Source: Candidatus Parvarchaeum sp. (lineage in GTDB: Archaea; Nanobdellota; Nanobdellia; Pacearchaeales; GW2011-AR1). Taken from it: 64,000 nucleotides of DNA. The translations under genes were made by a program, and so were the position numbers. The notes beneath the pieces were generated by a model. The model ran no database searches and was not told where the DNA came from. It worked only from the letters and a program-made list of their open reading frames with translations. Shown here in pieces: positions 26,076 to 53,199 of the stretch (position 1 is its first letter; the number at the start of each line of letters is the position of its first letter). The stretch spans positions 2,046 to 66,045 of the forward strand of contig DYFY01000001.1 of assembly GCA_020724955.1 (NCBI GenBank), given 5' to 3'.

Positions 26076-26630
26076 TTAATTATTTATGACAGAGCTGATT
26101 TCAAGTTTCAGAAATTCATGCAAGGCATCCAGGCTTGCATTCCGAAGCCTGTTTTTCACTTCTTCTTTTGATTTGCAGTCCGAGATATTGATTTTTTGCT
26201 GAAAAAGAATTCTTCCAGTGTCTATGCCTTTGTCTATCAAATGGAATGTAAATCCGGAGATTTTCGCTTTTGAGTTGAAGGCTTCCTCATGCGGGAATGC
26301 TCCTGGGAAATCCGGCAAATACGAGAGATGGAGATTTATTAGTTTATTCTTGTATTGTTCAAGCAGTTCCTGAGAAACTATCAAACGATTGTATCCTGCC
26401 GCCATTATCAAATCCGGAGAGATTTTGTCCAGTTCGGATTTTATTGCCGAGTCATGAGCGATGCGGTTTATGAAAGATTGATGGGGAATCACTTTAAGCG
26501 GAATGTTTAAAGAGGCGCAGATGAATTTGATTTTGGCTGAAGGAATGTTTGAAATTACAAGGGCAAGGTTTTCAGTTCTCGCTATGGATTCTATGTATTC
26601 CGGCTCTGACGTCAGGAGAGCTAACTTCAT
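26076..26630 (-). CDS. Formyltransferase, PurN-like (GAR transformylase family)
   Basis: INLHLSYLPDFPG and GFTFHLIDKGIDTGRIL resemble the PurN catalytic blocks INIHPSLLP and GCTVHFV..D.GPII. 184 aa. The N-terminal glycine motif is degenerate. Confidence 0.55.
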   Translation of the reverse strand: MKLALLTSEPEYIESIARTENLALVISNIPSAKIKFICASLNIPLKVIPHQSFINRIAHDSAIKSELDKISPDLIMAAGYNRLIVSQELLEQYKNKLINLHLSYLPDFPGAFPHEEAFNSKAKISGFTFHLIDKGIDTGRILFQQKINISDCKSKEEVKNRLRNASLDALHEFLKLEISSVINN

Positions 26631-26680
26631 CTGGTATTGTATTCCAGCACGTTTATAAAATCTGTTCTTTCAAGTTTGGA

Positions 26681-27946
26681 ATGCTTGATGAGAATATTCA
26701 ATATATAGAAAGCCTGAAAAGGTTTGGGATTAGATCAGGGCTTGAGCCTATGAGTAAGCTTCTGGAGCTTTTAGGCAATCCACATAAAAAGTTTAAGAGT
26801 ATTCATGTAGCCGGAACAAATGGGAAAGGAAGCACCACTGCCATGATTTCTAGCATTATAAAAGAAGCAGGCTATAAAGTTGGAGCTTATTTCAGCCCTT
26901 ATCTTTTGAAGTTTAATGAACGGATAGAGATAAATGGGAATCCTATCTCTGATTACGATTTGGAAAGGTTGATTACTAAGGTTAGAAAACATCTGGAGAG
27001 TTCTGATATGGAGGTTACTTTTTTTGAATTTATTACTGCAGTTGCCTTTCTTTATTTCGTCGAACATAAAATAGACATAGCAGTGATTGAAGTTGGACTT
27101 GGAGGAAGGCTGGATGCTACAAATATCACAGATTCTTTAATTTCAGTAATAACCAACATAGGCTCTGACCATCAGCAGATATTAGGGAATACTAAAAGTA
27201 AGATTGCTATCGAGAAAGCAGGAATAATTAAGGAAAAACAGATTTGTATTAGCGCCGAAGAAGACCCAACTATAAAATTAATATTTTCTGAAATTTGCAA
27301 GATAAAAAATACAGAATTGCTTTTTGTTGATGATGTGACTGATTTTAAAATTTTAGAAAATAACTTAGAGCATCAGAAATTTTCGGCTCAGGGAATTTTT
27401 CAAGGAGAGTTTGAGCTCAAACTATTGGGAAATCATCAAGTTAGGAACGCTTTAACTGCATTAATAGTCTGCTCCAAGCTTAATGAGATTTGGAAGCCAA
27501 TACCTCAATCTTCTTGGAATATTGGATTGAAAAAAGCAATGATAAGAGGAAGGCTGGAAGTCATTTCTAAAAATCCTTTGATTATAGTTGATGGAGCCCA
27601 TAATCTTGAGGGGATTTTAGCTTTGAAGAGATTTATTTTAGGTTTAAGCAAGAGGAAGGTTTTGATTATGGGAGTCTCTAATGACAAGGATAGTTTTGAA
27701 ATGGTTAAGGAGCTTGCTCCTTTATTTGAGGTATTTGTTGCGACAGAAGGAAAATATAAACCAAAGCCTATTTTGGAATTGGTTGAAGAAGCTGAAAGAT
27801 TTTGTAATAATGTTTATTCTTTTAAAGAGCCTTTAGATGCTTTGAAGAAATCTCTTGAATTAGCCAGCAAAGATGAAATGATTTTAGCTACTGGCTCGCT
27901 GTACATGATTCCTGAAATTATTAAGTTTTTTGATAAAGCCGGATAG
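26681..27946 (+). CDS. folC: Folylpolyglutamate synthase / dihydrofolate synthase (Mur ligase family)
   Basis: HVAGTNGKGST P-loop. Start moved to the internal ATG at 26681 (MLDENIQYIESL); the track ORF start at 26549 would overlap the divergent purN-like gene. Confidence 0.8.
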   Translation: MLDENIQYIESLKRFGIRSGLEPMSKLLELLGNPHKKFKSIHVAGTNGKGSTTAMISSIIKEAGYKVGAYFSPYLLKFNERIEINGNPISDYDLERLITKVRKHLESSDMEVTFFEFITAVAFLYFVEHKIDIAVIEVGLGGRLDATNITDSLISVITNIGSDHQQILGNTKSKIAIEKAGIIKEKQICISAEEDPTIKLIFSEICKIKNTELLFVDDVTDFKILENNLEHQKFSAQGIFQGEFELKLLGNHQVRNALTALIVCSKLNEIWKPIPQSSWNIGLKKAMIRGRLEVISKNPLIIVDGAHNLEGILALKRFILGLSKRKVLIMGVSNDKDSFEMVKELAPLFEVFVATEGKYKPKPILELVEEAERFCNNVYSFKEPLDALKKSLELASKDEMILATGSLYMIPEIIKFFDKAG

Positions 27947-28031: not shown

Positions 28032-29273
28032 TTGGAGATGGAAAGTTTGAAGAATTCCGACTTGGAGATTTATTCTTATATTTCTGCTGAATTGGAAAGG
28101 CAGAAAAATGTTTTGAACATGATTCCTTCTGAAAATTATGTTTCTTCAGCTGTTATGGAGGCTTGCGGTTCTGTGTTGATGAACAAGTATGCTGAAGGCT
28201 ATCCCTTTAAGAGATATTATCAGGGAAATAAAAATGTTGATGAAGTTGAAAAAACAGCCATTGAAAGGGCTAAAAAACTTTTTGGAGCTGAGCACGCCAA
28301 TGTCCAGCCTCTTTCTGGAAGCCCTGCCAATGCAGCGGTGTTTTTGGCTTTTTTAAATCCCGGTGATAAATTTATGGGTTTGGACTTGGCTTGCGGAGGA
28401 CATCTAACTCACGGAAGCCCTGTTAATTTTTCCGGAAAGATTTATCACAACATTCCTTACGGAGTTGACAAGGAAACCGGGTTGTTGAATATGGATGAGA
28501 TTAGGGAAATTGCATTAAAAGAAAAACCAAAAATGATTATTTCAGGGCTCACAGCTTATCCAAGAAAAATTGATTTCAGGAAATTTCAGGATATTGCAGA
28601 AGAAGTTGGAGCGATACATGTCGCTGACATTTCTCACGTTGCAGGGCTTGTTGCTTCAGGAGTTTATCCGAGTCCGCTGCCCTTTACAGATATTGTTGTC
28701 ACGACAACACATAAAACCCTGCGCGGACCAAGGGGAGGGCTGATTTTATGTAAGGAGAAGTATGCTAAGCAAATAGACAAGGCTGTTTTTCCAGGGATGC
28801 AGGGCGGCCCTCATGAGAATACAATTGCTGCGAAAGCAGTTGCATTTAAAGAAGCAGACTCTGAAGATTTTAAGAGGTATAGCCTGCAGGTTGTGAAGAA
28901 CGCCAAAACGCTTTCTGAAGCTTTGATGAACGAAGGAATAAAATTGGTAAGCGACGGAACTGACAATCATCTAATTCTTATTGATTTAACCTTTTATGGA
29001 GTCGGGCTCGGAAAAGAAATTGCTGAGGCTTTGGAGGAGGCGGGGATTTGTTTAAATGCCAATACAATTCCTTATGATCCTTCAACGCCTTTTAAGCCGT
29101 CAGGACTTCGCTTGGGAACTCCAATTCTGACAACGCGCGGGATGAAAGAAGAAGAGATGAAGCTTATTGGAAAGTGGATTGCGGATGTTATAAAAGAGCA
29201 TAAAAATCCTGAATTGCTTAAGGAAGTCAGGGATAGAGTCAAAGAACTTTGCGGGAAATTTAGGTTTTATTGA
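28032..29273 (+). CDS. glyA: Serine hydroxymethyltransferase
   Basis: Full-length SHMT pattern: LNMIPSENYVS, the PLP-Lys region TTTHKTLRGPRGG, 413 aa. Confidence 0.9.
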   Translation: MEMESLKNSDLEIYSYISAELERQKNVLNMIPSENYVSSAVMEACGSVLMNKYAEGYPFKRYYQGNKNVDEVEKTAIERAKKLFGAEHANVQPLSGSPANAAVFLAFLNPGDKFMGLDLACGGHLTHGSPVNFSGKIYHNIPYGVDKETGLLNMDEIREIALKEKPKMIISGLTAYPRKIDFRKFQDIAEEVGAIHVADISHVAGLVASGVYPSPLPFTDIVVTTTHKTLRGPRGGLILCKEKYAKQIDKAVFPGMQGGPHENTIAAKAVAFKEADSEDFKRYSLQVVKNAKTLSEALMNEGIKLVSDGTDNHLILIDLTFYGVGLGKEIAEALEEAGICLNANTIPYDPSTPFKPSGLRLGTPILTTRGMKEEEMKLIGKWIADVIKEHKNPELLKEVRDRVKELCGKFRFY

Positions 29274-29907
29274 CAGGGAATTTAAATTAGTTACCGCTAA
29301 AAACTGGAAAAAATGACTTTTTTTGCTTCTTTTTCATTAATAAGAAAATTGCGAATAGGTTTTTTATAGAGAAGAGAAAAGAAACAGAAAACTTAATAAT
29401 GTTATTAAACGACAATTCCATTCAGATGGTCTGTCAAGTCTCTCATATCGTTTGGCTTTCCTTGCAACCCTTCTCCTTTCTTTTCTCCATAATACATTCT
29501 ATCCATTTCTACGAAGAAGTCGTTTACCCTTCGCGCAGTTTCTTGATAATTATCTAATCCTTTTCTTTTATCTTCCCAAAGGACTCCAATCATTTGGCTT
29601 TATCCCATAATACTCTTGATCAGCTGAACCTATCAAAGACGCTCCTATACAAAATACTAAACCACTTGCTAAACCACTTAAAGTGTATATTATTATTGGT
29701 CTTTCTAAGGTCCTTCCACTGTAAGAAGAAGTGGGCTTCGCCTGTTGTTTTTCATATCGTTCAGGAGAGCCGGAATTACAACAAATGATAGCAGAGCCGC
29801 CAGATACTAACATTCCAAGACCTCCCATAAGTAATAAAAGAAAACCTAATCCACTTTTGTTTCTTATAGCTTCAGCCCTATCTGGCGAAATTTTGCTCTC
29901 AAGCATT

Positions 29908-30306
29908 TTATCTCATCCTCCCAATTTCATTTAAATAAAGAGCTAATTGTTTCATTGCCTTCGGTTTGCCTTCTAACTCTGAATAATATTTGTTGTCCAT
30001 ATTGAAATAGAACTGATTCAAAAACTGAATAATTCGCTTATAATTATCAACTCCCCTTTTCTGGATAAATTTGTAATATGCCTGTACATATTTAGCAAGC
30101 GTTTCCGTTAATTCTCTTACGTCTTCATCTTTTATATTGTGTGTTTCTCTAAGAAAATTCTCCATATCTTCTAATTCTTTGTTTATTGTTTGTTCAGTTG
30201 TTTGTTTCTTCTTTTCAGAACGTTCTAAAATTCCATGTTCCACTAAACCCTTATGGAACTTTTCTATTCCTTCTAACATTTCCTGATTGAATCCGCAATA
30301 GGGCAT
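29908..30306 (-). CDS. Hypothetical protein
   Basis: 132-aa helical ORF with no motif. Confidence 0.35.
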   Translation of the reverse strand: MPYCGFNQEMLEGIEKFHKGLVEHGILERSEKKKQTTEQTINKELEDMENFLRETHNIKDEDVRELTETLAKYVQAYYKFIQKRGVDNYKRIIQFLNQFYFNMDNKYYSELEGKPKAMKQLALYLNEIGRMR

Positions 30307-30414
30307 TTTTCGTTTCTTCTTAATTTCTTGTAAGAAAAGAATTTATATTATTTATCTCCCCTGTACAGAAGGTATAATAGAAAAGGTTTTATAGTGTTTA
30401 TTTTTCTATTTTAT

Positions 30415-31161
30415 ATGGCTAATAATGAGATGTTTAATTTATTGAAGATTGGATTAACAGAGGGAGAAGCGAAAGTATATTTAGCTCTAAGCGAGTTAGG
30501 AAGCTCGACAGTTGGACCTATAGTAAAAAAATCAAAAGTTGCTTACTCAAATATCTATGATATTTTAAACCGCTTAATAGAAAAGGGAATTGTGAGCTTT
30601 ATCATAAAGAACAAAACTAAATATTTTCAGGCAGCATCTCCTTCCAACCTTATTCAGTATCTTGATAAAAAGCAAGAAGAAATAATCCAAGAAAAAGAAG
30701 CATTAGAAAAGATTCTTCCGGAATTGGAAAAGTTGCAGGAGGCAAAATCTAAACAAGAAGCAGAAGTTTTTGTAGGAAAAAAAGGATTAAGAACCGCTTA
30801 CGAAAAATTGGTTCATAACATATCAAAAGATGATGAAGTACTATTTTTTTATATTCATAATGAAAGATATGCAGATGAGTCTAATTTATTTTATAATAGT
30901 ATTATAGAGCTCAATAAAAAAGCAAAAAATAGAGGAATTTGTAACAAAGAGTATAAAACTTCTTGGTTTGCTAAGAAACCAAATTATCTAACGATGAAAT
31001 TTACAGATTCTCCTCTTCCAGGAAATATTGATATTGTCAGAGATAAGGTATTGTTTACTTGTTGGGGAGAGAGTATCTTTTCGGTATTAATTCATTCCAA
31101 ATCTCTTGCAGAAAGTTTGAGAAATTATTTTAACGAAATGTGGAAAATCGCTAAAAAATAG
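30415..31161 (+). CDS. TrmB-family transcriptional regulator (second copy)
   Basis: N-terminal wHTH GLTEGEAKVYLALSELGSSTVGPIVKKSKVAYSNIYDILNRLIEKGIV. Start ambiguous among 30394, 30415 and 30430. Confidence 0.6.
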   Translation: MANNEMFNLLKIGLTEGEAKVYLALSELGSSTVGPIVKKSKVAYSNIYDILNRLIEKGIVSFIIKNKTKYFQAASPSNLIQYLDKKQEEIIQEKEALEKILPELEKLQEAKSKQEAEVFVGKKGLRTAYEKLVHNISKDDEVLFFYIHNERYADESNLFYNSIIELNKKAKNRGICNKEYKTSWFAKKPNYLTMKFTDSPLPGNIDIVRDKVLFTCWGESIFSVLIHSKSLAESLRNYFNEMWKIAKK

Positions 31162-31248: not shown

Positions 31249-32355
31249 CTAATGCTGAGTTTGTGAAGTTAGTTGATTATTTACATGTTTCTCAATTTCT
31301 TTTATCAAGTCAACATATCCATTTATCATATTAAATTTTTCTGCATCCTTGAATCTTAATATTTCCAGCTTTCCGTCTTCTGCTTTTAAGCCCTCAAGTT
31401 TTGGCATGGGAGCTATATATACAAATGTTTCGTAATTGCAACCTGCTTGTTTTGAGTAGTGAGTCCATTTTTTGAATAGCTTATGCCCTTCTAACTCTAT
31501 TCCTAACTCTTCTTTTATCTCTCTTTTCAATGCTTGTTCAGGAGTTTCGTTGTCTTCAACATGTCCGCCAAAAAAATGATACTCTTCCCCCCATTTACTA
31601 ATTCCTTTTCTGTTTTGCAAGAGTATGTTCCCATTGGAGTCATAGAAAAGAATGTTTGCTGCCTGTAGCGTTTTTAGCTTTTCTGTTTCTTCATCAAAAA
31701 TCCCTTTAATCTCCTGAAAAACTTCTTCAGGAGAGCGCTCGCCGTTTATTATGAATATTTTTTCTCCTTTTTGTTTCTGAATTTCTGCAGCTTTCAGGTA
31801 GTTTTCTCTCAGCTTACTGATAAAGTCCAAGTGAGCTTCGAACTTGTGCTCTTTTCCCCTAATTTCTATTGAATCTTTTTTCATCCGCTCCATCGCTTTT
31901 TCAGGAGAAATATCTATTATGAAAGTAATTTCTGGGATCGGCAGATCGTTCTGTTTTTTTATCAGGTTTTCCATTGGAATTCCCTGAGCTGATTGATAAG
32001 CTATTGTGGAGAATTTATATCTGTCTGTTACCACGAAATGACCTTTTTCTAAGTTTGGCAGGATAAGCTCTTCGACCTGTTTTCTTCTGTCGTTTATAAA
32101 GAGCTCTGCAAGTTTGTCCGCCTGAGAAAGAGGATCGGAATCCTGTGTCAATATTGCTCTGATATTTGTATCCTTATAGGGATTTCTTGTCAGGACTATG
32201 TGGTGATGTTTGTCCTTTTCGAAAATATATTGGACAAGTTTTTTTATCTGCGTGCTTTTCCCGCAGCCGTCTATGCCTTCAAATGCTATGAAGATTCCAG
32301 TTCGGAAAGGTTTATTATTTGATGATAATGTCATGTTCTCCTCTTTTAGTATCAA
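31249..32355 (-). CDS. tmk: Thymidylate kinase fused to a C-terminal NUDIX hydrolase domain
   Basis: Tmk P-loop FIAFEGIDGCGKSTQ, then VLTRNP and DRYKFSTIAYQ. C-terminal Nudix box GGHVEDNETPEQALKREIKEELGIE. Confidence 0.7.
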   Translation of the reverse strand: MILKEENMTLSSNNKPFRTGIFIAFEGIDGCGKSTQIKKLVQYIFEKDKHHHIVLTRNPYKDTNIRAILTQDSDPLSQADKLAELFINDRRKQVEELILPNLEKGHFVVTDRYKFSTIAYQSAQGIPMENLIKKQNDLPIPEITFIIDISPEKAMERMKKDSIEIRGKEHKFEAHLDFISKLRENYLKAAEIQKQKGEKIFIINGERSPEEVFQEIKGIFDEETEKLKTLQAANILFYDSNGNILLQNRKGISKWGEEYHFFGGHVEDNETPEQALKREIKEELGIELEGHKLFKKWTHYSKQAGCNYETFVYIAPMPKLEGLKAEDGKLEILRFKDAEKFNMINGYVDLIKEIEKHVNNQLTSQTQH

Positions 32356-33658
32356 ATCTGTCGGGCTCTAAGTCAAAGTTTACCGGAATGCTCAATTCTT
32401 TTTCTATATACTCTCCAATTTTCTTTGCAATTCTTCTTAGTGTTGGATGGACAAATCTTGTGGATCTTAATTCAGCTACATAAATCATTGAAGGCAAATC
32501 CCCCACTACGAAGTTTGAAGTATTGTAACCCATTGGGATATAGTATTGTTTGATCTCGGGCTGAATATTCAATTCTTTTAGTTTTGCTTCCAAAATTCTT
32601 AGAAACTCTCTGGCTTCTCTTTTGGTGTTTTCTGAGAGATTGTCTAAATACCATTCATTGAAACCTATTTGAGTAGTTAATAATGGCATTCTTTGGTCAA
32701 TTCCTCTGTGTCTTTGAATGTCTCTAAACGAGCCAAAATCTAGCTTAAATTTGGAAGATATTCTTCCAATATGACTGAGAAATTTCGGGAGTTCTGTTTT
32801 TGCCGGGCGCTGTTGCAGCAACTCAAGATATTCTTTTAATAGGTTTTTGTTGATATCTGAGTTTATCTGAAAATCTGGACATTTTGGATCATGGTAGAAA
32901 TAATTTTTTGCAATAAGTTCTTGGTAATTTTCAGTATCGGAGTATCTTTTTTTTGTAAATGAGCTGGGGTGCGCTTCTATAACTGCGTCTTCTATTGCTT
33001 CTGCAATATTTCTTACTTCTTTTAGCGGATGATGCCTAAGAAAAAGCAATTTATCGGCAACTTGTCTTAAGTTTGAATGCCAGGCTAGTTTTGTAGATGC
33101 TCCGGCAGGAAGAAACCCTCTGGCGATGTCAAATGCTCTTGCGTTAATTGCTTTTTCGTATATGTTGTCTTTTTCTCCCTCTGGCTTTGGGTTTTGTTCT
33201 TTTAAGTAGACTTTTATAGGCTCTAGGATTTTTAGATAGAATTTTCTTTGGGATTCTAAAATTTCATTCCCTTTTTGAGAGCCCAATGGGTTGATAAATG
33301 GCTGATTTGAGAAGTCAATGTACCTTGTAGATGCCTCTTGTCCGCTGTATAGCTTATTGTCCTGAATTGCTTTTGCGGCAAGCATGGAGACTCCCTCTAT
33401 AAAAATTGTTGTGCTTCCGCAGTCTCCAATAGACTTATGCCCATATCCTACGTAAAATTTTTCCATAAAATTGGCGGAGCCTTTTTCTTCAAGAACTTCC
33501 AGGTGATTCTTAAGCCCTCCAAGTGACCTTGAATGAAGCGCTTGTAGCATCGCTTCTGATTCGCTGGTGATTGTTGCACCGGTGTCTAACACATAGACTT
33601 CTCCTCCTCCAGAAATTTTTCTATGCACATGCCTTAGAGATTTTGTTCCTGAGATCAT
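32315..33658 (-). CDS. thyX: ThyX-like flavin-dependent thymidylate synthase family protein, long 447-aa form
   Basis: SFRDIQRHRGIDQRM carries the ThyX RHR core. The RHR lies about 300 residues in, and the Ser of the canonical RHR-x7-S is not evident, so this is divergent or duplicated-fold. Confidence 0.55.
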   Translation of the reverse strand: MISGTKSLRHVHRKISGGGEVYVLDTGATITSESEAMLQALHSRSLGGLKNHLEVLEEKGSANFMEKFYVGYGHKSIGDCGSTTIFIEGVSMLAAKAIQDNKLYSGQEASTRYIDFSNQPFINPLGSQKGNEILESQRKFYLKILEPIKVYLKEQNPKPEGEKDNIYEKAINARAFDIARGFLPAGASTKLAWHSNLRQVADKLLFLRHHPLKEVRNIAEAIEDAVIEAHPSSFTKKRYSDTENYQELIAKNYFYHDPKCPDFQINSDINKNLLKEYLELLQQRPAKTELPKFLSHIGRISSKFKLDFGSFRDIQRHRGIDQRMPLLTTQIGFNEWYLDNLSENTKREAREFLRILEAKLKELNIQPEIKQYYIPMGYNTSNFVVGDLPSMIYVAELRSTRFVHPTLRRIAKKIGEYIEKELSIPVNFDLEPDRFDTKRGEHDIIIK

Positions 33659-34155
33659 TTTAATTCTAATTTTGATTTTAACATATCCTTTATTTTCGGT
33701 TCTGGTTTCCAGTAGTTAGGGCCCTTTGTGACTTTTCCTCTTTCGTCATAAATTGGTTTTCCATCCGCTCCCATCTTGCTGAAATTACTCTGCATTATTA
33801 TCTTCAGAACTTCCTCTAGATCTATGCCATATTTTAGAGCTTCGCTTCTTACATATACTACTATATCTCCAAAAACGTCTGAGATTGCTGTTAATATTTC
33901 CAGCTTTTCCTCTTCACTCATCTCTGAGTTTTTTATATTTTCATATTTTTTTATTATCTCATCCATCTCCTGTATCTCTTCTGTTAAAATTTTCTTGAAA
34001 TTTTTTAATCTATCAACTCCTAAGTCAGTGGGTTTATCATTTATGGGAAGACCATATAATTTATTCATTTCAATTATGGAATCTTTAAACTCTTTATTCA
34101 TTGTTTTTTTATAAACTGAGTTTATATAAAGATTATTGTCTTTATACTTGTTCAA
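33655..34155 (-). CDS. MazG-like all-alpha NTP pyrophosphohydrolase, possible dUTPase/dCTPase role
   Basis: LTEEIQEMDEI (EExxE/D) and ISDVFGDIVVYV (D-x2-Y) resemble MazG metal-binding helices. 166 aa. Confidence 0.45.
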   Translation of the reverse strand: MNKYKDNNLYINSVYKKTMNKEFKDSIIEMNKLYGLPINDKPTDLGVDRLKNFKKILTEEIQEMDEIIKKYENIKNSEMSEEEKLEILTAISDVFGDIVVYVRSEALKYGIDLEEVLKIIMQSNFSKMGADGKPIYDERGKVTKGPNYWKPEPKIKDMLKSKLELK

Positions 34156-35092
34156 TGAAGCTGAATGGTACGAACAGATTCTTTTGGTAGGCTCTTTCGC
34201 ATCTCAAAGTCATTAGTTTGGTATCAGGAGTCCTAAATTCTTCTTCTTTCATTCTTGCTATGTCGTTTATGTTTAACCAAACTATTTCAGAAGTTTCATC
34301 TTTTACATTATCTGGAACTTCTTTTATTTTTTCATCTATCAAGGACGCCGAAGCTATATTGACGGCAAAAGGAGCCTTCTGATTTGGATACATTCCGACA
34401 TAATTTACAGCTATTCCTACTAATCCAAGAGGATGAGATATCATTTTTCCACCGCTTTCTTGCAGCCTTTCTCTTGAAATTCCAGCTTCAATAGTCTCCC
34501 CCTCTTCAATTTTCCCTCCGAAAAAGCTTAATAAATTATTATATCTTTGACATCTCATAAATGCATACTCAACGTTTCCACTTCTTTCGTATCTTAGAAT
34601 CTCGCTTCCGACTAAGAAATCTGTTCTTCCCCATTGTCCAGGAATTTGAGCTGTCCTGTATCCGCTGGGAACTTCAGTAACCTGAATGAAATCTAGGGGC
34701 ACTATATGCCTACTAAATATTTTAGAGATTAGCGTATAAACATCAGGAGTCCTAAATTCTTCTTTTCTCGCCAGAGCTTCTGCTGGACTTATCTGTATTA
34801 TGTTTCTCCGGGATGGAAAACTTGTTATGACTCCTGTAGAACCTATATTAACTACATTTTTCCCTGAAGGGGTTTTATGATGGGTTATTCGTGTTATGTG
34901 GTATGGTTCTATCTCTATTCCATTTTCTTCTCTAACTCTTTGTTGAAGACCTTCTTGATACCCCTTTTCCCAAGGAATGTGTCCTCCCAAAAGAGAAAGT
35001 TTTCCATCTGCTTCTTTTAATGTTATAAGCCCATTTTGATATGGAACTATGGTACATACACTTGTTGAAATCGTCGATGTATCTGAACTCAT
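34142..35092 (-). CDS. Tandem NUDIX-domain hydrolase
   Basis: Two Nudix-box-like segments, LLGGHIPWEKGYQEGLQQRVREENGIE and FFGGKIEEGETIEAGISRERLQESGGK. Each half ends with an EEFRTPD motif. Confidence 0.55.
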   Translation of the reverse strand: MSSDTSTISTSVCTIVPYQNGLITLKEADGKLSLLGGHIPWEKGYQEGLQQRVREENGIEIEPYHITRITHHKTPSGKNVVNIGSTGVITSFPSRRNIIQISPAEALARKEEFRTPDVYTLISKIFSRHIVPLDFIQVTEVPSGYRTAQIPGQWGRTDFLVGSEILRYERSGNVEYAFMRCQRYNNLLSFFGGKIEEGETIEAGISRERLQESGGKMISHPLGLVGIAVNYVGMYPNQKAPFAVNIASASLIDEKIKEVPDNVKDETSEIVWLNINDIARMKEEEFRTPDTKLMTLRCERAYQKNLFVPFSFIEQV

Positions 35093-35135: not shown

Positions 35136-35444
35136 TCAATCTTTCATCTCAATTTTAATCTGGACGCTTCTTGGGATTTTAAGCATCATTATAGGATGGA
35201 GAATTCTATCTTCTGCCGGTAGGTCGATTATCCTTTTATGGACTCGCATTTCAAATCTGTCAAAAGTGGCTGTTCCGTCTCCACAGGGGGATTTTCTTGT
35301 TGTAACTTTCATGCGTCTTGTTGGAAGAGGTATTGGCCCGCGCATAGCTACTCCTGCCCTGCCGGAAATTTCTCTAATCATCTCTATTATTGCATTCAAT
35401 GCAGAGATGTCAACACTGCTAAGCTTGATTCTTACCTTTCCCAT
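35136..35444 (-). CDS. rps10: Ribosomal protein uS10 (S10p/S20e)
   Basis: KVRIKLSSVDISALNAIIEMIREISGRAGVAMRGPIPLPTRRMKVTTRKSP...MRVHKRIIDL matches uS10 throughout. Confidence 0.85.
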   Translation of the reverse strand: MGKVRIKLSSVDISALNAIIEMIREISGRAGVAMRGPIPLPTRRMKVTTRKSPCGDGTATFDRFEMRVHKRIIDLPAEDRILHPIMMLKIPRSVQIKIEMKD

Positions 35445-43104: not shown

Positions 43105-43248
43105 GCCTCAATAGTATAGTGGTTAGTACATCGCCCTGTCGCGAGGCAAGGGAGCCAAGGTTTCCTTGACCATCAATTTTCCTTTAAAATAGGAGTTCGG
43201 TGACCTCGTAGAACGGCGGAGACCCGGGTTCGATTCCCGGTTGGGGCG
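43105..43248 (+). tRNA. tRNA-Asp(GTC) with a 72-nt intron after anticodon-loop position 37
   Basis: Exon 1: GCCTCAA-TA-GTAT-AGTGGTTA-GTAC-A-TCGCC-CTGTCG. Intron at 43142-43213. Exon 2: C-GGCGG-AGAC-CCGGG-TTCGATT-CCCGG-TTGGGGC-G. All stems pair. Confidence 0.75.
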
Positions 43249-53036: not shown

Positions 53037-53199
53037 TCCCCTCGCCAAGAGTCGAACTTGGGTAACCCGGGTTCTGCTTTTTCTACTTTTCCTGCGAAAA
53101 GATTCTGAAAGCGTTTCATTCTTGTCCATTAAATCTTATGGAATGTCCACGCCTGACTTTTGTCTACAGCCGGATGCTCTGCCGTTGAGCTACGAGGGG
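53037..53199 (-). tRNA. tRNA-Tyr(GTA) with a ~90-nt intron in the anticodon loop
   Basis: Reverse complement: CCCCTCG-TA-GCTC-AACGGCA-GAGC-A-TCCGG-CTGTAG, intron (plus-strand 53073-53162), then C-CCGGG-TTAC-CCAAG-TTCGACT-CTTGG-CGAGGGG-A. C1:G72 is the archaeal/eukaryal Tyr identity pair. Confidence 0.75.

What the first reader, a model, noticed from the sequence alone, without database searches (positions are those of the whole stretch)
31249..35092. Thymidylate/dNTP-sanitising gene block: long ThyX-like protein, Tmk::NUDIX fusion, MazG-like pyrophosphatase and tandem-NUDIX protein in one orientation
Four consecutive minus-strand genes. A 447-aa ThyX-family protein has its RHR motif placed ~300 residues in and no obvious Ser of the RHR-x7-S motif. 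Thymidylate kinase is fused in-frame to a Nudix domain. A MazG-type all-alpha NTP pyrophosphatase overlaps ThyX by 4 nt. A two-Nudix-box protein has an internally duplicated EEFRTPD motif.

Together they resemble the dUTP to dUMP to dTMP to dTDP route plus nucleotide housecleaning, as found in phage nucleotide-metabolism or modification modules. The Tmk::Nudix fusion and the oversized ThyX are unusual. The block could equally make or police a modified pyrimidine nucleotide.
Basis: partly seen in the sequence, partly recalled or inferred. Interest (0 to 1): 0.6.

Follow-up and report, generated by a model that had tools for sequence, protein, structure and literature searches.

The report
Archaeal thymidylate operon with tandem ThyX
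This is an ordinary chromosomal gene block for making the DNA building block thymidylate in a tiny (DPANN-type) archaeon, notable because the usual enzymes (ThyA, DHFR, dUTPase) have been swapped in place for a duplicated "two-in-one" ThyX enzyme and a MazG-type pyrophosphatase.

Summary
The block is not a phage or base-modification module. It sits in a conserved chromosomal slot (SerRS, Na+/H+ exchanger, rpS10, [block], SHMT, FolC/formyltransferase) of Pacearchaeota-like DPANN archaea.

In the closest relatives this slot holds ThyA + trimeric dUTPase + DHFR::Tmk(::Nudix). Here it holds a tandem Nudix protein, a MazG-like protein, a 447-aa ThyX and Tmk::Nudix without DHFR. That is an in-situ non-orthologous displacement.

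The "oversized" ThyX belongs to a very large family (>4,500 database hits, 57-70% identical in Patescibacteria and Zixibacteria) annotated as FAD-dependent thymidylate synthase. It is a tandem ThyX with the catalytic motif split. The N-half keeps E108/S110/R112/Y113 and R198 but has DNK instead of RHR. The C-half keeps R316-H317-R318 and R398 but has no Ser/Arg/Tyr. This matches the known three-subunit ThyX active site and implies two composite sites per dimer (inferred).

The MazG-like gene and canonical dUTPase are mutually exclusive across related loci. The Tmk::Nudix fusion and the 316-aa tandem Nudix family (23 clusters in 1.84 billion) are rare, and their substrates are unknown. Modest interest.

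The parts
35136..35444 (-). Ribosomal protein S10 gene: the conserved upstream anchor of the 'thymidylate island' (context, not part of the pathway)
   Evidence: Pfam Ribosomal_S10 81.9 bits. S10 immediately precedes the thymidylate genes in L008-L010, L012, L014, L015, L017, L018, L020-L025 and L088.
34142..35092 (-). 316-aa tandem Nudix protein ('Nudix2'): degenerate N-terminal Nudix-like domain plus a C-terminal domain with a near-canonical Nudix box; both domains end in EEFRTPD
   Evidence: Pfam NUDIX 41 bits for residues 183-283 only; N-half E = 0.039. AF2 pLDDT 91.1 with two repeated beta/alpha Nudix patterns. Foldseek top hits are the two-domain NudC/NUDT12 and the single-domain MutT1/Ap4A hydrolases. 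The family has only 23 clusters in 1.84e9 representatives. It always lies directly after S10 and before ThyA in L014, L015 and L018.
34448..34519 (-). C-terminal Nudix box of Nudix2 (GGKIEEGETIEAGISRERLQESGG)
   Evidence: Family-invariant G192, G193, R207, E208, E212. The window copy has Q211 where most members have E. Coordinates.
34916..34987 (-). Degenerate N-terminal Nudix-box remnant of Nudix2 (GGHIPWEKGYQEGLQQRVREENGI)
   Evidence: RE and EE positions are not conserved across the family. Coordinates.
33655..34101 (-). 148-aa MazG-like all-alpha NTP pyrophosphohydrolase; its stop overlaps the ThyX start by 4 nt (ATGA)
   Evidence: PHROG 671 77.8 bits. PDB 3nl9 E = 4.5e-7 / 1.3e-7. Invariant E42, E45, D75, D79 and a C-terminal KGPNYWKPEPK motif. 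Lies between S10 and ThyA or ThyX in L022-L025 and L030, and is mutually exclusive with dUTPase in these loci.
32315..33658 (-). 447-aa tandem (pseudo-dimeric) ThyX, a flavin-dependent thymidylate synthase
   Evidence: Pfam Thy1 78.1 bits, 2 stretches. More than 4,500 homologues, 57-70% identical. AF2 pLDDT 89.3, pTM 0.89, with a duplicated secondary-structure pattern. The top 50 Foldseek PDB hits are all ThyX/PolB.
32945..33658 (-). ThyX N-half (residues 1-238): keeps the dUMP-side residues (H74, S76, E108, S110, R112, Y113, R180, N196, R198) but has D100-N101-K102 in place of RHR
   Evidence: Alignment to T. maritima ThyX (sequence verified). Invariance in 62 sequences.
33320..33337 (-). E108-A-S110-T-R112-Y113: the Ser/Arg/Tyr catalytic segment (= Tm E86, S88, R90, Y91)
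32318..32944 (-). ThyX C-half (residues 239-447): keeps RHR and the R174 equivalent (R398), and lacks the Ser/Arg/Tyr, R147 and R165 equivalents
   Evidence: hhalign C-half vs TmThyX. Invariant R316, R318, R398.
32705..32713 (-). R316-H317-R318: the only RHR motif
31249..32334 (-). 361-aa Tmk::Nudix fusion (dTMP kinase residues ~18-209; MutT-like Nudix domain ~217-361); overlaps ThyX by 20 nt
   Evidence: TIGR00041 130.9 bits, above the 83.25 cutoff; Pfam NUDIX 57.6 bits. The closest relatives P0122/P0123 are DHFR::Tmk::Nudix, 65% identical.
31498..31569 (-). Canonical Nudix box of the Tmk-fused domain (GGHVEDNETPEQALKREIKEELGI)
   Evidence: matches GX5EX7REUXEEXGU by reading.
28032..29273 (+). 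SHMT (glyA), which regenerates the CH2-THF used by ThyX; conserved downstream neighbour
   Evidence: Pfam SHMT in the identical contig. Syntenic in L009, L010, L012 and L018.
26549..27946 (+). FolC-like Mur-ligase (folylpolyglutamate synthase-like), part of the folate context
   Evidence: Pfam Mur_ligase_M/C, FOL3_C (weak). Syntenic in L009.

Best explanation
The block is the chromosomal thymidylate module of a Pacearchaeota-like DPANN archaeon, in a 'ThyX version'.

MazG-like, ThyX and Tmk::Nudix form a tightly coupled operon with 4-nt and 20-nt overlaps. The proposed roles are as follows.
- The MazG-like pyrophosphatase most likely converts dUTP (or dCTP) to the monophosphate, taking the place of the trimeric dUTPase found at the same position in relatives.
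- The 447-aa tandem ThyX methylates dUMP to dTMP with CH2-THF, which the neighbouring SHMT regenerates. It does not oxidise folate, which explains why the DHFR domain fused to Tmk in sister genomes is absent here.
- Tmk phosphorylates dTMP to dTDP.
- Its fused MutT-like Nudix domain and the upstream tandem Nudix protein are nucleotide-diphosphate-X hydrolases of unknown substrate. They are probably pyrimidine dNTP or damaged-dNTP house-cleaners.

The tandem ThyX is a pseudo-heterodimer. The C-half supplies the 'subunit A' residues of the canonical three-subunit active site (RHR and the R174 equivalent, for FAD and dUMP). The N-half supplies the 'subunit C' residues (E86, S88, R90, Y91 equivalents) and the 'subunit B' residues (R165 equivalent). 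A dimer of the fusion would therefore mimic the ThyX tetramer with two complete active sites instead of four.

Shown: gene and domain identities, synteny, the displacement, and the motif partition.

Inferred: substrates of the MazG-like and Nudix proteins, the oligomeric state, and the number of active sites.
For: Domains.

Synteny and displacement:
- The window has S10 > Nudix2 > MazG-like > ThyX > Tmk::Nudix ... SHMT > FolC.
- L012, L009 and L010 have S10 > ThyA > dUTPase > DHFR::Tmk(::Nudix) ... SHMT.
- L018 has S10 > Nudix2 > ThyA > dUTPase > DHFR::SHMT > Tmk.
- L024 has S10 > MazG-like > ThyX(451 aa) > Tmk.

Mutual exclusion: dUTPase occurs in 4 island loci (L009, L010, L012, L018) and MazG-like in 10 (the window, L020-L025, L030, L088), 6 of which have a thymidylate synthase adjacent. 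They never occur together.

Nucleotide-metabolism context of the long ThyX: it lies in an NrdD-NrdG-dUTPase-dCMP deaminase-ThyX-Tmk cluster (L005) and next to a MazG-like gene plus dCMP deaminase in a Paceibacterota genome (L007).

ThyX fold: AF2 pLDDT 89.3; all top Foldseek PDB hits are ThyX.

Motif partition. It is also seen in two other tandem ThyX classes of 556 and 574/612 aa.

Subunit roles from the literature: RHR and Arg199(Mtb)/Arg174(Hp) come from subunit A; Ser/Arg/Tyr come from subunit C; Arg190(Mtb)/Arg165(Hp) comes from subunit B (PMC6514825). There are four sites, each at the interface of three monomers (PMC11940539).

No ThyA, dUTPase, dCMP deaminase or DHFR in the 64-kb window, and none in about 10 kb beyond one end by Pfam labels.
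Against: - No biochemical data exist for any of the four proteins.
- TIGR02170 (thyX equivalog) scores 45 bits, below the 87.9 cutoff.
- The sequence profile of the long ThyX finds no solved ThyX, and the hhalign statistics for half-to-ThyX and half-to-half alignments are weak (E = 0.005-0.12). The residue mapping therefore rests on motif anchors plus fold.
- About 70 of 80 MazG-like homologues (bacterial, GC 0.5-0.67) have no thymidylate genes nearby, so the family is not dedicated to dUMP supply.
- Nudix2 always follows S10, so its link could be to S10 rather than to thymidylate synthesis.
- Only 64 kb (+10 kb) of the genome was searched, so a dUTPase or ThyA elsewhere cannot be excluded.
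Confidence: 0.75

Rival explanations
1. The block makes or polices a modified pyrimidine nucleotide. The ThyX-like protein would methylate or hydroxymethylate something other than dUMP (as PolB does with UMP), and the MazG and Nudix proteins would exclude the canonical dNTP, as in phage hypermodification or Z-genome clusters.
For: - ThyX homologues with other substrates exist (PolB structures appear among the Foldseek hits).
- The long ThyX is below the TIGR02170 equivalog cutoff.
- MazG/Nudix plus nucleotide kinase combinations occur in phage modules. The MazG-like protein matches PHROG 671 and tandem ThyX occurs in jumbo Vibrio phages.
Against: - The same chromosomal slot in sister archaea carries canonical ThyA + dUTPase + DHFR, so the blocks appear functionally equivalent.
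- SHMT and FolC are adjacent.
- The long ThyX is embedded in an RNR-dUTPase-dCMP deaminase-Tmk cluster in L005.
- The family is abundant in cellular genomes.
- Catalytic Ser/Arg/Tyr and RHR are all conserved.
- No phage genes flank the block and GC is uniform.
Confidence: 0.05
2. The accessory hydrolases (MazG-like, Nudix2, and the Nudix domain on Tmk) are generic house-cleaning enzymes. They are co-located with the thymidylate genes only because both sit next to rpS10, and dUMP comes from an unlinked dUTPase or dCMP deaminase.
For: - Most MazG-like homologues are in unrelated bacterial contexts.
- Nudix2 is invariably adjacent to S10.
- L018 has Nudix2 together with a canonical dUTPase.
- P0123 has Tmk::Nudix together with a dUTPase, so these Nudix proteins are not dUTPase substitutes.
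Against: - The MazG-like stop/ThyX start overlap (ATGA) implies co-translation.
- MazG-like lies directly next to ThyA or ThyX in 5 other archaeal loci and never co-occurs with dUTPase there.
- A different MazG-like gene lies beside the long ThyX and dCMP deaminase in a Paceibacterota genome.
Confidence: 0.3
3. The block is a recently acquired mobile or viral cassette rather than native chromosome.
For: - The ThyX is 57-61% identical to bacterial (Patescibacteria, Zixibacteria) proteins, which suggests lateral transfer at some time.
- ThyA/ThyX replacement by lateral transfer is well documented (PMC2826268).
Against: - No integrase or phage genes lie next to the block.
- Tmk::Nudix (65% identical to P0123) and Nudix2 are vertically shared with sister archaea in the same slot.
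- An S10 > MazG-like > ThyX > Tmk arrangement exists in another archaeal contig (L024).
- GC is 0.32-0.37, like the rest of the window.
Confidence: 0.05

Closest known systems
Flavin-dependent thymidylate synthase ThyX (Pfam PF02511; T. maritima TM0449, M. tuberculosis ThyX)
   Same: Same fold: Foldseek probability 1.0 and target-normalised TM-score (TMt) 0.5-0.6. All key catalytic and ligand residues are present somewhere in the polypeptide. Same pathway context with SHMT and Tmk.
   Different: Two ThyX domains in one chain. The RHR-x7-S motif is split between the halves. Only 13-19% identity to solved ThyX structures. Below the TIGR02170 cutoff. Predicted dimer with two sites rather than a homotetramer with four. 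No solved structure of this form was found.
'Duplicated ThyX' of Chloroflexi noted by Valas and Bourne 2009 (PMC3224940)
   Same: [quoted passage not shown]
   Different: I could not confirm that the Chloroflexi proteins belong to this exact 447-aa family (no sequence in hand). The complementary partition of motifs is not mentioned there.
ThyA + DHFR + trimeric dUTPase modules, including the DHFR::Tmk fusions of Pacearchaeota (L009, L010, L012, L018)
   Same: Same chromosomal slot, same flanking genes and the same pathway output (dTDP).
   Different: Non-homologous thymidylate synthase and dUMP supplier. The DHFR domain is missing, as expected for a ThyX-based cycle.
All-alpha NTP pyrophosphohydrolases: MazG, integron iMazG (2q73/2q5z), PDB 3nl9, dimeric dUTPases, DCTPP1
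   Same: EExxE ... DxxxD acidic motifs and a helical fold family. The best solved relative is 3nl9 (uncharacterised).
   Different: Below the Pfam MazG cutoff. Carries a family-specific invariant C-terminal KGPNYWKPEPK segment. Substrate unknown.
NudC / NUDT12 two-domain Nudix enzymes
   Same: Architecture of a non-catalytic Nudix-like N-domain followed by a catalytic Nudix domain (Foldseek E about 3e-8 over about 310 columns).
   Different: No zinc-binding Cys cluster (only 3 isolated Cys). No SQPWPFPxS NADH-pyrophosphatase motif. Different domain orientation (rmsd 16-18 A). 12-15% identity.

Membership tests
ThyX / FDTS (PF02511, TIGR02170) | Thy1 domain above the Pfam gathering score | tested here: met
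   78.1 bits against a 24.8 cutoff, two stretches.
ThyX / FDTS (PF02511, TIGR02170) | Contiguous RHR-x7-S signature in one domain | tested here: not met
   The N-half has DNK-x7-S110. The C-half has RHR-x7-L326. The motif is complete only across the two halves.
ThyX / FDTS (PF02511, TIGR02170) | NCBIfam equivalog score | tested here: not met
   45 bits against a cutoff of 87.9.
ThyX / FDTS (PF02511, TIGR02170) | ThyX three-dimensional fold | tested here: met
   AF2 pLDDT 89.3. The top 50 Foldseek PDB hits are all ThyX or PolB, probability 1.0.
ThyX / FDTS (PF02511, TIGR02170) | FAD-dependent dUMP to dTMP activity; homotetramer with four sites | not testable with these tools
ThyX / FDTS (PF02511, TIGR02170) | Genomic anticorrelation with ThyA/DHFR | tested here: inconclusive
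   No ThyA or DHFR in the 64-kb window, and sister loci with ThyA carry DHFR. The whole genome was not available.
dTMP kinase (TIGR00041) | Equivalog score, P-loop and DRY motif | tested here: met
   130.9 bits against 83.25. GIDGCGKST and DRY are present.
Nudix hydrolase | Nudix box GX5EX7REUXEEXGU | tested here: met
   The Tmk-fused domain has GGHVEDNETPEQALKREIKEELGI. The Nudix2 C-domain is close, with the RE and the second E invariant in the family, but the window copy has QE for EE. The Nudix2 N-domain does not meet it.
MutT 8-oxo-dGTPase (TIGR00586) | Equivalog score | tested here: not met
   49.1 bits (Tmk::Nudix) and 23.8 bits (Nudix2) against a cutoff of 97.9.
MazG (PF03819) | Pfam gathering score | tested here: not met
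   17.6-18.7 bits against 22. Related at superfamily level: PHROG 671 77.8 bits and 3nl9 E = 1e-7.
Trimeric dUTPase (PF00692) | Presence in the locus | tested here: not met
   No tblastn hit in the window with two archaeal dUTPase probes. It is present at the equivalent position in L009, L010, L012 and L018.
NudC / NADH pyrophosphatase | Zn-binding Cys4 and the SQPWPFPxS motif | tested here: not met
   Nudix2 has only Cys13, Cys181 and Cys298, and no such motif.
Prophage / mobile nucleotide-modification module | Phage or integrase genes flanking, atypical composition | tested here: not met
   Flanks are rpS10, SerRS, a Na+/H+ exchanger, SHMT and FolC. GC is uniform.

The most novel reading that the evidence does not exclude
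Tandem ThyX proteins are obligate pseudo-heterodimers. Duplication was followed by complementary loss, leaving the FAD/RHR/R174 role only in the C-half and the dUMP/Ser-Arg-Tyr role only in the N-half. This gives a half-of-sites thymidylate synthase, (N-C)2, with two active sites.

The partition is shared by at least two very divergent tandem classes: the 447/556-aa class and the near-canonical 574/612-aa class. It is therefore either ancient or convergent.

In addition, the MazG-like family with the KGPNYWKPEPK tail would be a previously unrecognised non-orthologous substitute for dUTPase in DPANN archaea, and the 316-aa tandem Nudix family a new thymidylate-linked enzyme.
Probability: 0.45. 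Interest if true: 0.55.

Novelty: new variant of a known kind. Interest (0 to 1): 0.4.

Why it matters
ThyX is an antibacterial drug target and a textbook case of non-orthologous displacement.

This locus shows the displacement frozen in place. The same chromosomal slot holds ThyA/DHFR/dUTPase in sister genomes and ThyX/MazG-like here, and the DHFR domain is lost from the Tmk fusion exactly as ThyX chemistry predicts.

The very abundant but structurally and biochemically uncharacterised tandem ThyX family is the thymidylate synthase annotated in many Patescibacteria, Zixibacteria and DPANN genomes. It appears to have a split active-site design that makes clear, cheap predictions: one FAD per chain, two sites per dimer, and non-equivalent halves.

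The accessory MazG-like and Nudix proteins are candidates for the missing dUMP-supply and dNTP-sanitising steps in organisms with minimal genomes. None of this is categorically new biology.

Tried and rejected
- Phage or modification-module idea. PHROG hits are generic. tblastn against 50,697 phage genomes gave only 6 distant hits (about 33% identical; jumbo Vibrio phages and one Tunturiibacter phage). BFVD gave two tandem-length viral ThyX hits. The context is chromosomal. Rejected.
- Sequence search of the 447-aa protein and of its 62-sequence profile against PDB gave no ThyX hit, only a spurious FKBP3 hit. Only fold comparison links it to solved ThyX.
- hhalign N-half vs C-half was not significant (E = 0.12). 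Internal duplication rests on the two Pfam stretches, the repeated secondary-structure pattern and the motif alignment, not on half-to-half similarity.
- Word-index search for Nudix2 homologues found only the protein itself. The exhaustive HMMER search found 23 clusters.
- The search for related loci with the Nudix2 alignment failed because there was no conserved 7-mer.
- tblastn for ThyA, dUTPase, dCMP deaminase and DHFR in the window found nothing. The NrdD probe in that call was mistranslated and is uninformative.
- Extending one window end by 10 kb added nothing relevant. The other look-up returned only a 2.9-kb contig.
- Literature searches for tandem/duplicated ThyX, ThyX in DPANN, and Tmk-Nudix fusions found only the one-sentence remark in PMC3224940.
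- The sigma-70 promoter/terminator scan is not applicable to archaea. TATA-like AT-rich boxes about 25-30 nt upstream of S10, Nudix2 and the MazG-like gene were seen by eye, but they are weak evidence in a 36% GC genome.

Full report
**What is there**

Four co-directional minus-strand ORFs occupy 31249-35092, exactly as described.
- The 368-aa ORF (361 aa from the ATG that gene callers use) is a bona fide dTMP kinase fused to a Nudix domain. TIGR00041 scores 130.9 bits against a cutoff of 83.25, and Pfam Thymidylate_kin scores 121.7 bits. The Nudix domain scores 57.6 bits and carries a textbook Nudix box.
- The 447-aa ORF matches Pfam Thy1 (78.1 bits) in two stretches.
- The 148/166-aa ORF is an all-alpha NTP pyrophosphohydrolase of the MazG superfamily. 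It is below the Pfam MazG cutoff. It scores 77.8 bits to PHROG 671 and E = 4.5e-7 to the uncharacterised PDB entry 3nl9.
- The 316-aa ORF has one Pfam NUDIX hit, in its C-half.
- The MazG-like stop and the ThyX start overlap in ATGA. ThyX and Tmk overlap by 20 nt.
- tRNA genes with introns (Rfam hits of 144 and 163 nt), an archaeal-type S10, and best relatives named Pacearchaeota/Nanoarchaeota place the window in a DPANN archaeon.

**The 'oversized' ThyX**

It is not an oddity of this genome. The search returned >4,500 significant hits. The top 120 are all about 445-490 aa and 57-70% identical, and they come from Patescibacteria/Paceibacterota, Zixibacteria and unnamed metagenome contigs. Where named, they are called 'FAD-dependent thymidylate synthase'.

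A ColabFold model built from 62 sequences is confident (pLDDT 89.3, pTM 0.89). It shows the same beta-alpha-beta / long-helix pair / beta-alpha-alpha pattern twice. All 50 best Foldseek matches in the PDB are single-domain ThyX or its relative PolB (probability 1.0, target-normalised TM-score (TMt) 0.5-0.6, 13-19% identity). By sequence alone, neither the protein nor its family profile reaches any solved ThyX. The tandem form therefore has no experimental structure in the copy searched.

**Split active-site motif**

I verified the T. maritima ThyX sequence against 1kq4/1o26 and aligned each half to it.

| Tm ThyX residue | N-half | C-half |
|---|---|---|
| R78-H79-R80 | D100-N101-K102 | R316-H317-R318 |
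| E86, S88, R90, Y91 | E108, S110, R112, Y113 | absent |
| R147 | R180 | Q371 |
| N163, R165 | N196, R198 | absent |
| R174 | R208 (variable; M/T/S/K in Zixibacteria) | R398 |

E108, S110, R112, R180, R198, R316, R318 and R398 are invariant in 62 sequences. Y113 and H317 are at least 90% conserved.

The statistical support of these half-alignments is weak (hhalign E = 0.005-0.02). N-half versus C-half is not significant (E = 0.12). The mapping therefore rests on motif anchors plus the fold.

It fits the published anatomy of the ThyX site well.
- Each of the four sites lies at the interface of three monomers (PMC11940539).
- RHR and Arg199(Mtb)/Arg174(Hp) come from subunit A.
- Ser105/Arg107/Tyr108 (Mtb) come from subunit C.
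- Arg190(Mtb)/Arg165(Hp) comes from subunit B (PMC6514825).

So the C-half retains exactly the 'A' set and the N-half the 'B' and 'C' sets. I infer that a dimer of the fusion reproduces the tetramer with two complete sites.

The same RHR-only-in-C and SxRY-only-in-N partition appears in two other tandem forms that I met in related loci.
- A 556-aa form is colinear with this one (E = 1e-13).
- A 574/612-aa form has both halves matching T. maritima ThyX full-length (E = 2e-18 and 4e-25).

The only literature mention I found is a remark that Chloroflexi ThyX 'contains a domain duplication ... has not been characterized' (PMC3224940). A large ThyX phylogeny filtered sequences on RHRX7S, a filter that may have removed such proteins (PMC2826268).

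**Context decides the function**

The identical contig shows this order: SerRS, a 213-aa protein, Na+/H+ exchanger, a 136-aa protein, S10, Nudix2, MazG-like, ThyX, Tmk::Nudix, then TrmB regulator, SHMT, FolC-like ligase and formyltransferase.

The S10-adjacent slot in relatives holds the following.

| Locus | Genes after S10 |
|---|---|
| Window | Nudix2 > MazG-like > ThyX(447) > Tmk::Nudix ... SHMT > FolC |
| L012 (its DHFR::Tmk::Nudix is 65% identical over the Tmk and Nudix parts) | ThyA > dUTPase > DHFR::Tmk::Nudix > SHMT |
| L009, L010 | same with DHFR::Tmk |
| L018 | Nudix2 > ThyA > dUTPase > DHFR::SHMT > Tmk |
| L014, L015 | Nudix2 > ThyA |
| L023, L030 | MazG-like > ThyA (L030 contig starts within MazG-like; S10 not seen) |
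| L022 | MazG-like > ThyX(556) > Tmk |
| L025 | MazG-like > ThyX(574) > Tmk |
| L024 | MazG-like > ThyX(451) > Tmk |
| L008 | a 206-aa Nudix > ThyX(612) > Tmk |

This is an S10-adjacent 'thymidylate island' whose thymidylate synthase and dUMP supplier are interchangeable parts. The window is the version in which ThyA, dUTPase and the DHFR domain have been replaced. That is the expected correlate of ThyX chemistry (THF, not DHF, is the product) and of the known ThyA/ThyX displacement by lateral transfer (PMC2826268).

Elsewhere the same long ThyX sits in NrdD-NrdG-dUTPase-(kinase::dCMP deaminase)-ThyX-Tmk (L005). It also sits beside a different MazG-like gene and a dCMP deaminase in a Paceibacterota genome (L007).

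Within the window there is no ThyA, dUTPase, dCMP deaminase or DHFR.

**MazG-like protein**

Across the island loci, dUTPase (4 loci) and MazG-like (10 loci, 6 with a thymidylate synthase adjacent) never co-occur and occupy the same position. Here the MazG-like gene is translationally coupled to ThyX.

That supports, but does not prove, a role as the dUTP (or dCTP) pyrophosphatase that feeds dUMP to ThyX. Two points argue for caution.
- The family is highly conserved (48-65% identity; invariant E42, E45, D75, D79 and a KGPNYWKPEPK tail).
- Most members are in high-GC bacterial contigs with unrelated neighbours.

**Nudix proteins**

The Tmk::Nudix fusion is rare. Only 4 of the top 120 Tmk relatives carry both domains. 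It predates the displacement, since P0122 and P0123 are DHFR::Tmk::Nudix. Because those genomes also have a dUTPase, the fused Nudix domain is not simply a dUTPase substitute. It is MutT-like but far below every NCBIfam equivalog cutoff.

Nudix2 has no detectable relative by word-index search and only 23 cluster representatives by exhaustive HMMER over 1.84 billion proteins.
- The family alignment shows a conserved catalytic box in the C-domain (G192, G193, R207, E208, E212), a degenerate N-domain, and FRTPD at the end of both domains. Half-to-half similarity gives E = 3e-4.
- Its model (pLDDT 91.1) is two Nudix folds.
- The best two-domain structural analogues are NudC/NUDT12, but the zinc cluster and the NADH-pyrophosphatase motif are absent.
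- It always follows S10 and precedes the thymidylate synthase.

The substrates of both Nudix proteins remain unknown. Pyrimidine or damaged dNTP house-cleaning is my best guess, at low confidence.

**Verdict**

The pathway reading is supported. The phage or modified-base reading and the 'unusual ThyX' claim are not.

What is worth keeping:
- the in-situ ThyA/DHFR/dUTPase to ThyX/MazG-like swap;
- the complementary split of the ThyX active-site residues between the two halves of an abundant, uncharacterised tandem family;
- two rare Nudix architectures tied to thymidylate genes.

Interest is moderate (0.4). I file the block as a new variant of a known kind.

Noticed in passing
P0126-P0155 (DHFR::Tmk, ~320-490 aa), P0136 and P0171 (DHFR + dUTPase + Tmk, 597 and 523 aa), L018 8485-10188 (DHFR::SHMT, 567 aa): Pacearchaeota-type archaea show an unusual variety of multi-enzyme fusions among thymidylate-cycle enzymes: DHFR::Tmk, proteins combining DHFR, dUTPase and Tmk domains, DHFR::SHMT and DHFR::Tmk::Nudix.
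   Followed up: partly
L022 5475-7145 (-), L025 5447-7171 (-), L008 6054-7892 (-): Two further tandem ThyX classes (556 aa; 574/612 aa) sit next to S10/MazG-like/Tmk in related archaea. Both have SxRY only in the N-half and RHR only in the C-half. Both halves of the 574/612-aa class still match T. maritima ThyX strongly.
   Followed up: partly
L020-L099 (80 metagenome loci): The MazG-like family is 48-65% identical between low-GC DPANN archaea and high-GC (0.5-0.67) bacterial contigs, with an invariant C-terminal KGPNYWKPEPK motif. Its only solved relative (3nl9) is uncharacterised.
   Followed up: partly
Vibrio phages vB_VmeM-Yong (MK308674-7) and BONAISHI (MH595538); BFVD A0A6B7EUB9; Microcystis phage LMM01 A0A7D4: Jumbo phages encode full-length tandem ThyX homologues (about 33% identity, 93-96% coverage). 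Four of them are annotated only as 'hypothetical protein'.
   Followed up: no
L005 1-3116: The anaerobic ribonucleotide reductase NrdD in the archaeal contig GCA_964534185.1 carries an intein (Pfam Intein_splicing between two NRDD segments).
   Followed up: no
window 43105-43248 (+) and 53037-53199 (-): Two tRNA matches are 144 and 163 nt long (Rfam) and were not called by ARAGORN. They are presumably intron-containing archaeal tRNA genes.
   Followed up: no
window 29908-30306 (-) and 29405-29593 (-): The 132-aa ORF and the nearby 62-aa ORF are paralogous (38% identity over the C-terminal part). They have no family assignment and lie between the TrmB regulator and SHMT.
   Followed up: no
window 30394-31161 (+): A TrmB-family transcriptional regulator lies convergent to the Tmk::Nudix 3' end. 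Whether it regulates the thymidylate operon is unknown. It is not present at this position in L009, L010 or L012.
   Followed up: no
L022 3914-4948 (+): A thioredoxin-reductase-like pyridine nucleotide-disulphide oxidoreductase sits between S10 and the MazG-like gene, next to a tandem ThyX. It is a possible flavin/NADPH-linked partner.
   Followed up: no
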